Source: Mobula hypostoma
Lineage: Eukaryota
Length of the DNA: 64,000 nucleotides
Assembly (NCBI RefSeq): GCF_963921235.1
Contig: NC_086097.1
Coordinates: 29,328,001-29,392,000 of the forward strand
Reading direction: 5' to 3'
The notes beneath the pieces are model-generated. The model was not told the DNA's origin. It worked only from the letters and a program-made list of their open reading frames with translations, and searched no databases. Shown here one piece after another: positions 46,536 through 59,404 of the stretch. A program made the position numbers and the translations under genes. Position 1 is the stretch's first letter. Each line of letters starts with the position of its first letter.

Positions 46536-46758
46536 CAACACAAACAACAGGAATTCTGCAGATGCTGGAAATTCAAGCAACACACATCAAAGTTGCTGGT
46601 GAACGCAGCAGGCCAGGCAGCATCTCTAGGAAGAGGTACAGTCGACGTTTCAGGCCGAGACCCTTCGTTAGTCCTGACGAAGGGTCTCGGCCTGAAACGT
46701 CGACTGTACCTCTTCCTAGAGATGCTGCCTGGCCTGCTGCGTTCACCAGCAACTTTGA
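46536..46758. mobile_element. Palindromic mini-insertion made of two PLE 3' ends, inside a CR1
   Basis: 82-bp inverted arms (46587-46668 / 46677-46758) with an 8-nt loop. TSD AGAGAGCAACTAA / AGAAAGCAACTAA. Confidence 0.9.
46670..46705 (+). ncRNA. Minimal type I hammerhead ribozyme in a palindromic mini-PLE
   Basis: AGTC-CTGACGA-AGGGTCTCGGCCT-GAAAC-GTC^GACT, intact. Confidence 0.85.
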
Positions 46759-54632: not shown

Positions 54633-55376
54633 CTTTAAGAAAAAAATCACAAATGTACAGTGATAAATTGGCAACTTCTGGAGAGCAAGAAGATAAAAGA
54701 GTGTAAATTAGGTACAAGCTCATTTTCCCAGGAGCAGAATTCAAAATCAAAGATGTCTTATCATTGTAATGCACTTCAGATAAAGTTAAGGAATAACCAC
54801 TTACAAGAATGGAATCATATGCACGCTGGTCAGAATCAGCGAGGCAGGAGCCTGGGAATTTAATGCACCAAACTTCTACATTTATTGAAATGAATTTTGA
54901 ATCTTGCCATGACAGAATTTAAATTGTTACGTTCAAGGTGTGAGCCCAGTGGGATGGCCATTTCTTCCCAGCCCGGCCTTGTTTTTGATAACATTGCATT
55001 GACCCTTTCTCTCATCCTATCAAAAGTAACAAAAATGCACAAATCCATTGTCTTCCTTCTATAACGTACAAGTTTTTAAAAATTCAATCACTGCTACTTT
55101 TTCCATCTTTTTTCCAATTTTGATGCCATCCTTGACCCAACAAACCAATTTTCCCATAAGGAATTTCTGAACTTTAGATAGGGTACATTCAAACCAAACT
55201 TTGGGTTGACAGAATTAGGCACCTCTCAATTGTTGGGATGAAAAAAGACAATATCAAGGTTCCAAATTCATAACTGCAACATAGGGCATCAGAAACATTC
55301 ATGTTCTATTAAAGCAACACACATCAAAGTTGCTGGTGAACGCAGCAGGCCAAGCAGCATCTATAGGAAGAGGCGC

Positions 55377-55412
55377 AGTCGACGTTTCAGGCCGAGACCC
55401 TTCGTCAGGACT
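55377..55412 (-). ncRNA. Minimal type I hammerhead ribozyme in the PLE 3' UTR
   Basis: AGTC-CTGACGA-AGGGTCTCGGCCT-GAAAC-GTC^GACT: CUGANGA and GAAA core, stem I AGUC/GACU, stem II AGG/CCU, palindromic ACGU stem III, GUC cleavage triplet. Confidence 0.85.
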
Positions 55413-55705
55413 AACTGAAGGAAGAGTGAGTAAGGGATTTGAAAGTTGGAGGGGGAGGGGGAGATGCAAAATGATAGGAGAAGACAGGAGGGGAAGGGAT
55501 GGAGCCGAGAGCTGGACAGGTGATAGGCAAAAGGGGATACGAGAGGATCATGGGACAGGAGGTCCGGGAAGAAAGACGGGGGGGGGTGACCCAGAGGATG
55601 GGCAAGAGGTATATTCAGAGGGACAGAGGGAGAAAAAGGAGAGTGAGAGAAAGAATGTGTGCATAAAAATGAGTAACAGATGGAGTACGAGGGGGAGGTG
55701 GGGCC

Positions 55706-57064
55706 TTAGCGGAAGTTAGAGAAGTCGATGTTCATGCCATCAGGTTGGAGACTACCCAGATGGAATATAAGGTGTTGTTCCTCCAACCTGAGTGTGGCTT
55801 CATCTTTACAGTAGAGGAGGCCGTGGATAGACATGTCAGAATGGGAATGGGATGTGGAATTAAAATGTGTGGCCACTGGGAGATCCTGCTTTCTCTGGCG
55901 GACAGAGCGTAGGTGTTCAGCAAAGCGGTCTCCCAGTCTGCGTCGGGTCTCACCAATATATAAAAGGCCACATCGGGAGCACCGGACGCAGTATATCACC
56001 CCAGCCGACTCACAGGTGAAGTGTTGCCTCACCTGGAAGGACTGTCTGGGGCCCTGAATGGTGGTAAGGGAGGAAGTGTAAGGGCATGTGTAGCACTTGT
56101 TCCGCTTACACGGATAAGTGCCAGGAGGGAGATCAGTGGGGAGGGATGGGGGGGACGAATGGACAAGGGAGTTGTGTAGGGAGCGATCCCTGCGGAATGC
56201 AGGGGGGGGGGAGGGAAAGATGTGCTTAGTGGGGGGATCCCGTTGGAGGTGGCGGAAGTTACGGAGAATAATATGTTGGACCTGGAGGCTGGTGGGGTGG
56301 TAGGTGAGGACCAGGGGAACCCTATTCCTAGTGGGGTGGCGGGAGGATGGAGTGAGAGCAGATGTACGTGAAATGGGGGAGATGCGTTTAAGAGCAGAGT
56401 TGATAGTGGAGGAAGGGAAGCCCCTTTCTTTAAAAAATGAAGACATCTCCCTCATCCTAGAATGAAAAGTCTCATCCTGAGAGCAGATGCGGCGGAGACG
56501 GAGGAATTGTGAGAAGGGGATGGCGTTTTTGCAAGAGACAGGGTGAGAAGAGGAATAGTCCAGATAGCTGTGAGAGTCAGTAGGCTTATAGTAGACATCA
56601 GTGGATAAGCTGTCTCCAGAGACAGAGACAGAAAGATCTAGAAAGGGGAGGGAGGTGTCGGAAATGGACCAGGTAAACTTAAGGGCAGGGTGAAAGTTGG
56701 AGGCAAAGTTAATAAAGTCAACGAGTTCTGCATGCGTGCAGGAAGCAGCGCCAATGCAGTCATCGATGTAGCGAAGGAAAAGTGGGGGACAGATACCAGA
56801 ATAGGCACGGAACATAGATTGTTCCACAAAGCCAACAAAAAGGCAGGCATAGCTAGGACCCATACGGGTGCCCATAGCTACACCTTTAGTTTGGAGGAAA
56901 TGGGAGGAGCAAAAGGAGAAATTATTAAGAGTAAGGACTAATTCCGCTAGACGGAGCAGAGTGGTGGTAGAGGGGAACTGATTAGGTCTGGAATCCAAAA
57001 AGAAGCGTAGAGCTTTGAGACCTTCCTGATGGGGGATGGAAGTATATAAGGACTGGACATCCAT
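55706..57064 (-). CDS. Penelope-like RT plus GIY-YIG endonuclease ORF (partial; frame stays open to ~57379)
   Basis: 452-aa ORF with RT motifs (DVQSLY, GVAMG, YIDD) and a C-terminal GIY-YIG domain with conserved Cys/His. Confidence 0.88.
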   Translation of the reverse strand: MDVQSLYTSIPHQEGLKALRFFLDSRPNQFPSTTTLLRLAELVLTLNNFSFCSSHFLQTKGVAMGTRMGPSYACLFVGFVEQSMFRAYSGICPPLFLRYIDDCIGAASCTHAELVDFINFASNFHPALKFTWSISDTSLPFLDLSVSVSGDSLSTDVYYKPTDSHSYLDYSSSHPVSCKNAIPFSQFLRLRRICSQDETFHSRMREMSSFFKERGFPSSTINSALKRISPISRTSALTPSSRHPTRNRVPLVLTYHPTSLQVQHIILRNFRHLQRDPPTKHIFPSPPPAFRRDRSLHNSLVHSSPPSLPTDLPPGTYPCKRNKCYTCPYTSSLTTIQGPRQSFQVRQHFTCESAGVIYCVRCSRCGLLYIGETRRRLGDRFAEHLRSVRQRKQDLPVATHFNSTSHSHSDMSIHGLLYCKDEATLRLEEQHLIFHLGSLQPDGMNIDFSNFR

Positions 57065-57380
57065 GGTGAAAATAAAGCGGTGGGGGCCAGGGAACTTAAA
57101 ATCACCGAAAAGTTTAAGAGCGTGAGAAGTGTCATGAACATGGGTCGGAAGGGATTGAACAAGGGGTGATAAAACAGTGTCGAGGTATGCAGAAACGAGT
57201 TCGGTGGGGCAGGAGCAAGCTGAGACAATAGGTCGGCCAGGACAGGCAGGTTTGTGGATCTTGGGTAGGAGGTAGAAACGGGAAGTGCGGGGTGTGGGAA
57301 CTATAAGGTTGGTAGCAGTGGATGGGAGATCCCCTGAGCGGATAAAGTCGGTGATAGTGTGGGAGACAACGGCCTGGTGC

Positions 57381-59101
57381 TCCAGACCTAATCAGTTCCC
57401 CTCTACCACCACTCTGCTCCATCTAGCGGAATTAGTCCTTACTCTTAATAATTTCTCCTTTTGCTCCTCCCATTTCCTCCAAACTAAAGGTGTAGCTATG
57501 GGCACCCGTATGGGTCCTAGCTATGCCTGCCTTTTTGTTGGCTTTGTGGAACAATCTATGTTCCGTGCCTATTCTGGTATCTGTCCCCCACTTTTCCTTC
57601 GCTACATCGACGACTGCATTGGCGCTGCTTCCTGCACGCATGCAGAACTCGTTGACTTTATTAACTTTGCCTCCAACTTTCACCCTGCCCTCAAGTTTAC
57701 CTGGTCCATTTCCGACACCTCCCTCCCCTTTCTAGATCTTTCTGTCTCTGTCTCTGGAGACAGCTTATCCACTGATGTCTACTATAAGCCTACTGACTCT
57801 CACAGCTATCTGGACTATTCCTCTTCTCACCCTGTCTCTTGCAAAAACGCCATCCCCTTCTCGCAATTCCTCCGTCTCCGCCGCATCTGCTCTCAGGATG
57901 AGGCTTTTCATTCTAGGACGAGGGAGATGTCTTCATTTTTTAAAGAAAGGGGCTTCCCTTCCTCCACTATCAACTCTGCTCTTAAACACATCTCCCCCAT
58001 TTCACGTACATCTGCTCTCACTCCATCCTCCCACCAACCCACTAGGAATAGGGTTCCCCTGGTCCTCACCTACCACCCCACCAGCCTCCGGGTCCAACAT
58101 ATTATTCTCCGTAACTTCCGCCACCTCCAACGGGATCCCCCCACTAAGCACATCTTTCCCTCCCCCCCCTCTCTGCATTCCGCAGGGATCGCTCCCTACA
58201 CAACTCCCTTGTCCATTCGTGCCCCCCATCCCTCCCCACTGATCTCCCTCCTGGCACTTATCCGTGTAAGCGGAACAAGTGCTACACATGCCCTTACACT
58301 TCCTCCCTTACCACCATTCAGGGCCCCAAACAGTCCTTCCAGGTGAGGCATCACTTCACCTGTGAGTCGACTGGGGTGATATACTGCGTCCGGTGCTCCC
58401 GATGTGGCCTTTTATATATTGGTGAGACCCGACGCAGACTGGGAGACCGCTTTGCTGAACATCTACACTCTGCCCGCCAGAGAAAGCAGGATCTCCCAGT
58501 GGCCACACATTTTAATTCCACATCCCATTCCCATTCTGACATGTCTATCCACGGCCTCCTCTACTGTAAAGATGAAGCCACACTCAGGTTGGAGGAACAA
58601 CACCTTATATTCCGTCTGGGTAGCCTCCAACCTGATGGCATGAACATCGACTTCTCTAACTTCCGCTAATGCCCCACCTCCCCCTCGTACCCCATCTGTT
58701 ACTCATTTTTATGCACACATTCTTTCTCTCACTCTCCTTTTTCTCCCTCTGTCCCTCTGAATATACCTCTTGCTCATCCTCTGGGTCACCCCCCCTCCCC
58801 TCCTTGTCTTTCTTCCCGGACCTCCTGTCCCATGATCCTCTCGTATCTCCTTTTGCCTATCTCCTGTCCAGCTCTCGGCTCTATCCCTCCCCCTCCTGTC
58901 TTCTCCTATCATTTTGCATCTCCCCCTCCCCCTCCAGCTTTCAAATCCCTTACTCACTCTTCCTTCAGTTAGTCCTGACGAAGGGTCTCGGCCTGAAACG
59001 TCCACTGCGCCTCTTCCTATAGATGCTGCTTGGCCTGCTGCGTTCACCAGCAACTTTGATGTATGTTGTTTGAATTTCCAGCATCTGCAGAATTCCTGTT
59101 G
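57381..59101 (+). mobile_element. Penelope-like element, 5'-truncated, right arm of the inverted pair (frameshift in poly-C near 58160-58170)
   Basis: Near-identical reverse complement of 55314-56992. ORFs 57285-58346 and 58343-58669. Ends ...ccagcatctgcagaattcctgttg followed by the TSD. Confidence 0.95.
58971..59006 (+). ncRNA. Minimal type I hammerhead ribozyme with a G>C change in stem I
   Basis: AGTC-CTGACGA-AGGGTCTCGGCCT-GAAAC-GTC^CACT. Confidence 0.75.
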
Positions 59102-59404
59102 TTCATGTTCTATTAAACTTGGTTTTATCAACATAAAAGCTAAAATAATTCTAAAGCACTTGAATTTTGTACTACCCCAATGCAGAACCTGCAGATTTGA
59201 GCTTTTCAGCAAGGCACTGTGCTTTTGAAATCATATGCTACAAGTAAAAGAAAACAGACTAAATCAGCTTGTAAATCAAAGTAAACTGCCCATTTTTCAT
59301 AAAGAGTTTTCTAGGCATGCACAAGCCTCACCTTCACATTCATGGAATATCAAGCTGCACTAGTTCAAGATTCCCAGAATATGCTTTTCCCAAAAGATTT
59401 TAAC

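What the first reader, a model, noticed from the sequence alone, without database searches (positions are those of the whole stretch)
55298..59117. Head-to-head Penelope pair integrated as one 3.8-kb event inside a single 16-bp TSD
Seen: two differently 5'-truncated copies of the same Neptune-type PLE are fused at their truncated 5' ends (junction ~57380/57381), so both 3' termini face outward. TTCATGTTCTATTAAA flanks the unit at 55298-55313 and 59102-59117. One end is complete (...gcagaattcctgttg) and the other is ~30 nt shorter. Established: PLEs use a GIY-YIG endonuclease and can show direct or inverted terminal repeats; L1-style twin priming yields only one true 3' end. Inference: both strands of a 16-nt staggered cut primed reverse transcription near an RNA 3' end and the two cDNAs were joined, or a fold-back/template switch copied the first strand.
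Basis: partly seen in the sequence, partly recalled or inferred. Interest (0 to 1): 0.82.

Follow-up and report, generated by a model that had tools for sequence, protein, structure and literature searches.

The report
Ordinary head-to-head Penelope retroelement insertion
Two truncated copies of a Penelope-like jumping gene sit back to back inside one target-site duplication; this is the usual, already published way such elements insert, but here the two copies came from two different RNA templates.

Summary
Window 55314-57380 (minus strand, 2067 nt) and 57381-59101 (plus strand, 1721 nt) are two 5'-truncated copies of one Penelope-like element (PLE). They are joined head to head with 3 nt of microhomology. 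A perfect 16-nt direct repeat flanks the pair, and only the right copy carries the last 32 nt (the "tail").

This is not a rare event. In a positional sample of this 3.48-Gb genome I found 22 more such pairs. Each has exactly one tail and a 9-16 nt target duplication. They make up roughly half of the sampled insertions.

The architecture is in print: an inverted 5'-truncated copy, a 30-40 bp tail at one end, and a variable TSD (Arkhipova 2013; Craig 2021). A PLE protein cuts and extends both DNA strands in vitro from two start sites (Frangieh 2024).

What I add:
- The two arms belong to different subfamilies. Each has at least 39 closer relatives elsewhere than its partner. This argues against fold-back copying and for two RNAs primed at the two nicks.
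- Contigs of two other organisms seem to lack the insertion.
- Short symmetric pairs, by contrast, always share one haplotype.

The scan noted head-to-head PLE dimers before, on other genomes. Interest is modest.

The parts
55298..55313 (.). Left copy of the target-site duplication, TTCATGTTCTATTAAA (14-16 nt, because the first TT is ambiguous)
   Evidence: family D9, exact 16-mer. Ambiguity of TT.
55314..57380 (-). Left arm: a 5'-truncated PLE copy of 2067 nt without the tail. It keeps an open frame of 561 codons (55706-57391, read stop to stop) covering part of the RT and the whole GIY-YIG endonuclease. It carries the minority subfamily haplotype.
56747..57097 (-). Reverse-transcriptase match (residues 99-215 of the 561-aa frame)
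   Evidence: RVT_1, E 3.4e-5, 24.1 bits, below Pfam's cut-off of 29.6
55778..56002 (-). GIY-YIG endonuclease match (residues 464-538). [quoted passage not shown]
   Evidence: GIY-YIG, E 4.4e-4, 20.9 bits, cut-off 22.6. Motifs read in the translation.
57381..57383 (.). Head-to-head junction with 3-nt microhomology (TCC), which fits either arm
   Evidence: three continuous copies (L033, L053, L052) read TCC after ...GGCCTGGTGC; the junction 31-mer is unique in the genome.
57381..59101 (+). Right arm: a 5'-truncated PLE copy of 1721 nt with the tail. Its frame is broken by a 2-nt difference in a run of C near 58160. It carries the majority subfamily haplotype.
59070..59101 (+). The 'tail': 32 nt present only on the right arm (TTGAATTTCCAGCATCTGCAGAATTCCTGTTG)
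   Evidence: alignment. The same one-sided tail occurs in 22 other pairs.
59102..59117 (.). Right copy of the target-site duplication
   Evidence: D9. Contigs of runs X5 and X15 start to match the stretch at 59102 and 59105.
58977..59002 (+). Hammerhead-like core in the 3' region (CUGACGA ... GAAAC, then GUCGAC in the left arm). This is the 26-mer used as a family probe. Its mirror copy lies at 55381-55406 on the minus strand.
   Evidence: window hits; 45,444 exact genomic hits. The motif reading is from recalled consensus and passages of PMC4209133. Rfam gave no match.

Best explanation
This is one integration event of an endonuclease-bearing Penelope-like element, in the standard head-to-head form of that class.

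Shown:
- Two 5'-truncated copies lie with both 3' ends outward inside one 14-16 nt duplication.
- One arm has the 32-nt tail and one does not.
- The junction has 3 nt of microhomology.
- The arms come from different subfamilies.

Inferred mechanism:
1. The GIY-YIG endonuclease makes a staggered double cut that leaves two 3' overhangs of about 14 nt.
2. Each overhang primes reverse transcription of a separate element RNA.
3. One cDNA starts at the downstream start site (after ...CCUGUUG(UUU)) and gives the tailed arm.
4. The other cDNA starts about 32 nt upstream (after ...GUGUUGC) and gives the tail-less arm.
5. The 3' ends of the two growing cDNAs meet, anneal over a few bases (here TCC/GGA), and each is extended on the other. 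This supplies second-strand synthesis and creates the inverted repeat.
For: Structure and single event:
- Searches give the architecture, and one search shows the junction is unique in the genome.

It is the rule in this family:
- Among the first 100 exact probe hits, adjacent hits within 8 kb were 14 tails-out against 4 tails-in, 2 plus-plus and 0 minus-minus.
- I examined 57 of these 100 hits. They gave 22 head-to-head pairs, each with exactly one tail and a 9-16 nt duplication (median 14 over 24 pairs, window pairs included). Two of the duplications (L044, L060) I read by eye in the outputs.
- If tails were assigned independently at the frequency seen in single copies (7 of 16), 24 of 25 pairs with exactly one tail has P = 5e-7.

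Two templates at this locus:
- The left arm carries 653G-949G-971A-990G-1082C. Four of these five sites are non-CpG. The same combination occurs in L034+, L064 and L066; the right arm carries the majority states.
- In two 500-nt segments each arm has 39 other genomic copies scoring above its partner. The partner is absent from all four lists of 40, and the paired lists share no place.
- A 2201-nt contig of run X5 (organism B) matches only from 59102 onward, with 1 difference in 299 nt and 1647 further letters on the left unlike the element. A contig of X15 (organism F) matches from 59105. If the insertion is that young, 2% arm-to-arm divergence cannot have arisen after insertion.
- 7 of 9 long TSD-flanked pairs also differ at family haplotype sites.

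Published support (passages read):
- A purified PLE protein cleaves and extends both strands, and reverse transcription starts at two sites whose spacing is the tail (PMC11167929).
Against: - No read or contig listed spans 57380/57381, so the inversion rests on the assembly and on analogy with the other pairs.
- The letters of the X5 and X15 contigs to the left of 59102 were not shown. The empty site is therefore inferred, not seen.
- Frangieh et al. report no difference in start site between top and bottom strands. The strict one-tail rule is therefore not explained by their data.
- Arms of short symmetric pairs never differ at five haplotype sites (0 of 15 pairs, against about 47% discordance for shuffled partners). 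Two random RNAs cannot be the general rule.
- Within-pair discordance is 16% overall, which is below random.
- The tail-less arm is the longer one in 10 pairs and the shorter in 3 (p = 0.09). This asymmetry has no place in a simple symmetric model.
- The subfamily comparison in the alignment rests on 13-19 other copies per site.
- Gene conversion from another copy after insertion could mimic a second template.
Confidence: 0.6

Rival explanations
1. Fold-back or self-priming. One cDNA was made, its 3' end snapped back on itself (or the enzyme switched to the nascent strand) and copied it, so both arms derive from one template. This is close to the self-priming idea in PMC3846280.
For: - Palindromic junctions are common in short pairs, and their arms always share haplotype (0 of 15 discordant).
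- The junction of the short pair at 46.6 kb recurs 468 times at up to 1 mismatch.
- PMC3846280 proposes self-priming to explain head-to-head repeats.
Against: At this locus:
- The arms carry different linked subfamily variants, and each has at least 39 closer relatives than its partner.
- A copied arm cannot contain a tail that its template lacks, so the tailed arm would have to be made first and be the longer one. Here, and in 10 of 13 unequal pairs, the tail-less arm is longer.

Elsewhere:
- By my reading of the output, L037 is a perfect palindrome with no loop. A hairpin cannot make that.
Confidence: 0.07
2. One RNA, two start sites. A dimeric enzyme sits on the two adjacent start sites of a single RNA. 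Both cDNAs copy that RNA, the tail-less one leading. The subfamily differences arose later by gene conversion.
For: - It explains the rule of exactly one tail per pair.
- It explains the trend for the tail-less arm to be longer (10 against 3).
- It explains the identical haplotypes of short pairs.
- It explains L053, where the tailed arm consists of 26 nt of tail and then jumps over the region covered by the other arm.
Against: - The arms of this pair differ along their whole length at family-polymorphic sites, including 1683 near the 3' end.
- In both 500-nt segments tested the partner is outside the best 40.
- Contigs of organisms B and F suggest a young insertion, which leaves little time for conversion.
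Confidence: 0.12
3. Two independent insertions. A second copy landed exactly at the 5' end of an older one in the opposite orientation.
For: - The arms belong to different subfamilies.
- PLEs are reported to nick their own sequences (PMC11167929).
- One sampled pair (L033) has two tails and no duplication.
Against: - The 16-nt repeat flanks the composite, and no second duplication lies at the inner junction.
- The same holds for all 24 one-tail pairs.
- The one-tail rule would not follow from independent events.
Confidence: 0.04
4. Assembly artefact. Two copies of a very abundant repeat were wrongly joined in inverted orientation.
For: - The family has at least 45,444 probe hits.
- PMC8557442 warns that such structures trouble assemblies.
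- No listed piece spans the junction.
Against: - A perfect duplication flanks the unit.
- The same architecture with a duplication occurs at 22 other sampled loci.
- The junction shows an ordinary 3-nt microhomology.
- A 2262-nt contig of run X1 covers tail, duplication and right flank without a difference.
Confidence: 0.03

Closest known systems
Inverted-repeat insertions of endonuclease-bearing Penelope-like elements, for example Pen2a_Av of Adineta vaga (PMC3846280) and the general scheme of Fig. 2 in PMC8557442
   Same: - An inverted 5'-truncated copy adjoins the 5' end of another copy.
- A tail of about 31 bp sits on only one of the two outer ends.
- A short duplication flanks the whole unit.
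- Head-to-head is the most frequent arrangement.
- A palindrome or microhomology lies at the inner junction.
   Different: - Here neither arm is full length, and no direct pseudo-LTR is present.
- The duplication is longer (14-16 nt against 8-10 bp in the rotifer examples read).
- The arms can be assigned to two subfamilies. I did not find this reported in the passages read or in the searches.
In vitro insertion by the Anolis Poseidon element PAc (Frangieh et al. 2024, PMC11167929)
   Same: - Both DNA strands are cut and extended.
- Reverse transcription begins at two nearby internal sites, and the stretch between them equals the genomic tail.
- Here both inferred start sites follow a UGUUG motif about 32-35 nt apart.
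   Different: - PAc belongs to another clade and lacks the CX2-5CxxC linker.
- The paper reports no strand difference in start site, whereas genomic pairs here have exactly one tail in 24 of 25 cases.
- The paper does not address how inverted pairs arise.
Twin priming of LINE-1 (Ostertag and Kazazian 2001; recalled, not read here)
   Same: The second 3' overhang of the staggered break also primes reverse transcription, and the two cDNAs are joined by microhomology inside one duplication.
   Different: - In L1 the second priming is internal on the same RNA, so the inverted piece is the upstream part and only one true 3' end exists.
- Here both arms start at the element's 3' region and overlap over 1685 nt.
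- Two sampled loci (L051, L053) do look like the L1 type.

Membership tests
Endonuclease-bearing Penelope-like elements (EN+ PLE) | One ORF with a reverse transcriptase followed by a C-terminal GIY-YIG endonuclease | tested here: met
   One search finds RVT_1 (E 3.4e-5) and then GIY-YIG (E 4.4e-4) in one 561-aa frame. Both are below Pfam's curated cut-offs. In one search the nearest Atlas clusters (score 0.97) carry HTH_animal, RVT_1 and GIY-YIG.
Endonuclease-bearing Penelope-like elements (EN+ PLE) | CCHH motif with two cysteines between GIY and YIG (PMC8557442) | tested here: inconclusive
   The translation reads GVIYCVRCSRCGLLYIGET, so cysteines lie between the two motifs. I did not assign the two histidines.
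Endonuclease-bearing Penelope-like elements (EN+ PLE) | A 30-40 bp tail at only one end of the insertion unit | tested here: met
   The right arm alone has a 32-nt tail. The templated end often extends by TTT(GCGT). 24 of 25 pairs have exactly one tail.
Endonuclease-bearing Penelope-like elements (EN+ PLE) | An inverted 5'-truncated copy at the 5' end, with the whole unit inside a target duplication of variable length | tested here: met
   Duplications are 9-16 nt, median 14, over 24 pairs.
Endonuclease-bearing Penelope-like elements (EN+ PLE) | Hammerhead ribozyme motif in the terminal repeat | tested here: inconclusive
   CUGACGA ... GAAAC followed by the palindromic GUCGAC is visible at 58974-59010 and in the mirror copy. 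Rfam found nothing at E up to 1. Minimal PLE hammerheads are described as dimeric and atypical (PMC4209133).
Endonuclease-bearing Penelope-like elements (EN+ PLE) | Pseudo-LTR (partial tandem) around full-length copies | tested here: inconclusive
   No long direct repeat occurs at this locus. None of the longer copies held (L033, L049, L053, L064) showed an upstream repeat of the 3' region within the DNA fetched. No certainly full-length copy was available.
Neptune clade of PLEs | CX2-5CxxC zinc-finger-like linker upstream of GIY-YIG (shared with Nematis, absent in Penelope/Poseidon; PMC8557442) | tested here: met
   CKRNKCYTC precedes the GIY motif in the translation.
Neptune clade of PLEs | Placement of the RT with Neptune elements in a phylogeny | not tested
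   No named reference PLE sequences were at hand. 'Neptune-type' therefore remains 'Neptune or Nematis type endonuclease'.
LINE-1-type twin-priming inversion | The inverted segment is the upstream part of the same RNA, and only one true 3' end is present | tested here: not met
   The arms overlap over 1685 nt and both reach the element's 3' region.
Snap-back (self-primed) palindromic cDNA | Both arms copied from one template, hence the same subfamily markers | tested here: not met
   for this locus. The feature is met for the 15 short pairs.

The most novel reading that the evidence does not exclude
PLE integration is an obligately two-ended reaction of an asymmetric enzyme dimer.
- Each 3' overhang of the staggered break primes its own cDNA.
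- One cDNA always starts at the downstream start site and the other at the upstream one, hence exactly one tail per insertion.
- The two templates can be different RNA molecules, as in the long pairs whose arms come from different subfamilies.
- The two first strands then prime each other, so no separate second-strand step is needed.
- Short perfect palindromes would arise when both cDNAs run off the same short RNA, whose 5' end lies just upstream of the hammerhead-like motif. This would explain their shared haplotypes and recurrent junctions.
Probability: 0.35. Interest if true: 0.6.

Novelty: new member of a known kind. Interest (0 to 1): 0.3.

Why it matters
For annotation, it means little. 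This is a textbook PLE insertion in a genome that holds tens of thousands of them. Such palindromes should be expected, and not mistaken for assembly errors or hairpin genes.

For mechanism, how PLEs make inverted repeats and the one-sided tail is still called undefined in the literature (PMC8557442). This genome offers a large natural data set on that question. The data here give three constraints:
- exactly one tail per pair;
- a duplication of about 14 nt;
- arms from different subfamilies in long pairs but identical haplotypes in short ones.

Any model must meet these constraints. They speak against simple fold-back copying for long pairs.

Tried and rejected
- **Rfam:** a scan of 55200-59200 at E up to 1 gave no family, so the hammerhead reading stays unconfirmed.
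- **Reads across the junction:** none of the listed pieces spans 57380/57381. The tables were cut because about 390,000 pieces were laid, so this says nothing either way. The joint '56993 to 57381, opposite strands' seen in all four runs is only what continuous copies elsewhere produce on this stretch.
- **Stretch laid:** I laid only 56993-59400, to avoid the long inverted repeat. An empty allele therefore could not appear as a joint.
- **Rest of the sample:** I did not use N-padded patterns to pull letters.
- **Hammerhead self-cleavage and the 5'-end pile-up:** I considered whether self-cleavage sets the pile-up of 5' ends at R1563-1600. By the recalled type I layout the cut would lie after GAAACGUC, about 25-40 nt downstream of the pile-up. 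I rejected this as stated.
- **One RNA with two start sites:** I considered this as a model for this locus and rejected it because of the subfamily discordance.
- **Arm-to-arm identity:** on its own it does not discriminate. Within-pair identity is 0.980, against a maximum of 0.980/0.984 to five other long copies.
- **Earlier notes of the scan:** none on this genome.
- **Literature search:** 'Penelope-like' with 'twin priming' returned three papers, none about PLE integration (listing only).


Full report
**What is there**

Three collinear inverted-repeat blocks, 96-99% complementary, join 55308-56992 to 57381-59075. An exact 16-nt direct repeat, TTCATGTTCTATTAAA, lies at 55298-55313 and 59102-59117.

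Aligning the reverse complement of 55314-57380 with 57381-59101 gives the following:
- 33 substitutions and two indels (2 and 8 nt) over 1685 shared columns.
- The left arm reaches 388 nt further towards the element's 5' end.
- The right arm has 32 more nt at its 3' end.

The left arm keeps a 561-codon open frame. It matches a reverse transcriptase and then a GIY-YIG endonuclease (E 3.4e-5 and 4.4e-4, both under Pfam's curated cut-offs). The nearest Atlas clusters are animal proteins with HTH_animal, RVT_1 and GIY-YIG.

The translation shows CKRNKCYTC ahead of the GIY motif and cysteines between GIY and YIG. According to PMC8557442 (passages) this is the Neptune/Nematis type of PLE endonuclease. 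I did not test clade placement by phylogeny.

The right arm's frame is split by a 2-nt difference in a run of C.

**The junction and the ends**

Three continuous copies read TCC after ...GGCCTGGTGC, and the right arm begins TCCAGACC. The arms are therefore joined over a 3-nt microhomology. The 31-mer across the junction is unique in the 3.48-Gb genome at up to 2 mismatches, so this unit did not spread as a unit.

Among 61 tail ends that I hold, 51 continue TTT after CCTGTTG and 11 continue TTTGCGT. The templated tail is therefore often a few bases longer than 32 nt. The first TT of the 16-mer may belong to the element, which makes the duplication 14-16 nt.

**How common it is**

A 26-mer from the hammerhead-like part of the 3' region has 45,444 exact hits in the genome, and none for the reversed control. 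In the first 100 places listed (contig 1, 0-5.5 Mb), adjacent hits within 8 kb were:
- 14 minus-then-plus (tails out);
- 4 plus-then-minus;
- 2 plus-plus;
- 0 minus-minus.

About 13.5 are expected for all orientations together.

I fetched the DNA for 57 of the 100 hits. The other 43 could not be fetched. Comparison with the two window arms and inspection of flanks gave:
- **22 head-to-head pairs.** Several of them have a partner arm that lacks an exact probe match. Every one has a tail on exactly one arm and a direct repeat of 9-16 nt around the unit. Over 24 pairs including the two in the window, the median is 14. Two of the duplications (L044, L060) I read by eye in the outputs.
- **One pair (L033)** with two tails and no duplication.
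- **Two loci (L051, L053)** that resemble L1-type twin priming.
- **About 16 classifiable single copies:** 7 with a tail and 9 without.

Head-to-head pairs are thus roughly half of the sampled insertions. If tails were assigned independently at the single-copy frequency, 24 of 25 pairs with exactly one tail has P = 5e-7. For the nine long or unequal pairs alone, P = 0.0017.

**What is already known**

PMC3846280 (passages) describes:
- Penelope copies with an adjacent inverted pseudo-LTR;
- a characteristic 31-bp tail on one of the inverted repeats;
- 8-10 bp duplications around the whole unit;
- head-to-head as the most frequent arrangement.

It proposes self-priming on an antisense template.

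PMC8557442 (passages) lists, as known PLE traits whose origin is undefined:
- the inverted 5'-truncated copy;
- the 30-40 bp tail at only one end;
- the variable duplication.

PMC11167929 (main text read) shows that a purified PLE protein cuts and extends both strands. It also shows that reverse transcription starts at two internal sites whose spacing equals the tail.

The finding is therefore a clean example of a published signature, not a new kind of event. I found no paper linking PLEs with twin priming (listing) and only PMC3846280 for 'head-to-head' with GIY-YIG.

**One template or two**

Identity alone is uninformative: 0.980 between the arms, against up to 0.984 to other long copies.

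The sites tell more. Of the 33 substitutions, 9 fall at sites where both states are common in other copies. The left arm carries 653G-949G-971A-990G-1082C. That combination recurs in L034+, L064 and L066, four of the five sites are not CpG, and the right arm has the majority states.

I searched the genome with 500-nt pieces of each arm, covering two segments. Each search returned 39 other copies scoring above the partner. The partner is in none of the four lists, and the paired lists share no place. The arms therefore come from two subfamilies.

**Read evidence from other organisms**

Run X1 probably comes from the source organism. One of its contigs covers 59082-59400 without a difference.

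Run X5 comes from another organism label. One 2201-nt contig matches only from 59102, the first base of the repeat, with 1 difference in 299 nt, and has 1647 more letters on its left that do not match the element. A contig of X15 behaves alike from 59105.

That looks like an empty site, although I could not see those letters. If so, the insertion is too young for 2% arm divergence to have arisen in place.

Together these results speak against fold-back copying at this locus. They speak for two RNAs, one primed at each overhang.

**What does not fit neatly**

- Across 24 pairs, arms disagree at 34 of 213 comparisons at family-polymorphic sites (16%). Shuffled partners disagree at 47%, and 0 of 2000 shuffles were as low.
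- All 15 short symmetric pairs share the haplotype at five linked sites, whereas 7 of 9 long pairs differ (Fisher P = 1e-4).
- 31 of 72 arms end within R1563-1600, just upstream of the hammerhead-like core.
- The junction of the short pair at 46.6 kb recurs 468 times at up to 1 mismatch. Another short junction is found at 5 loci.
- The tail-less arm is the longer one in 10 unequal pairs and the shorter in 3 (p = 0.09).

A run-off of two cDNAs on one short RNA with a fixed 5' end would explain the short class. I have not shown it.

**Verdict**

The single-event and two-strand-priming reading is supported, and the fold-back alternative is disfavoured here. Novelty is low. The added value is a set of quantitative constraints on a mechanism that the field still regards as open.

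Noticed in passing
window 46545-46758: A second, short head-to-head pair of the same family. The left arm (about 139 nt) has the tail, the right arm (about 97 nt) does not, and the unit is flanked by AGCAACTAA. Its 36-nt junction recurs 468 times in the genome at up to 1 mismatch. It is either a hot-spot product or a palindromic unit that spreads as such.
   Followed up: partly
element positions R1563-R1600, equivalent to window 58943-58980: 31 of 72 arms in the sample have their 5' end in this 38-nt stretch just upstream of the hammerhead-like core. This suggests a fixed RNA 5' end or a strong stop.
   Followed up: partly
L053 2840-6110: The left end is the duplication ACTTTCTTAACCAC, then 26 nt of tail, joined directly to element position about R480 and running on towards the 5' end. 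The right arm covers R450-1687 without a tail. It looks as if the tailed cDNA skipped the part copied by the other one.
   Followed up: partly
L051 735-2452: An L1-like twin-priming arrangement. A tail-less minus arm covers R387-1688, followed by an inverted upstream piece R8-421 with a 14-nt filler. No clear duplication was found.
   Followed up: partly
L033 680-4358: A head-to-head pair with tails on both arms and no duplication. It is the only exception to the one-tail rule in the sample, and may be two events.
   Followed up: no
L040 2297-2684: 388 nt of unrelated sequence lie between the two arms of an otherwise typical pair. This may be a later insertion or captured filler.
   Followed up: no
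window 55308-55320 and tail-less ends of L036, L038, L039, L043, L047, L068, L070: Where the tail-less arm meets the duplication, the first bases of the duplication often resemble the start of the tail (TTGAAT). In the window it reads TTTAAT, and L038 shares 9 nt with one mismatch (my reading of the and 44 outputs). This hints that the upstream start uses base pairing with the overhang, which differs from the in vitro report of no homology.
   Followed up: partly
window 58155-58170 versus 56203-56215: The right arm has 2 extra nt in a run of C that break its reading frame, whereas the left arm keeps 561 open codons. A homopolymer length error in the assembly cannot be excluded.
   Followed up: no
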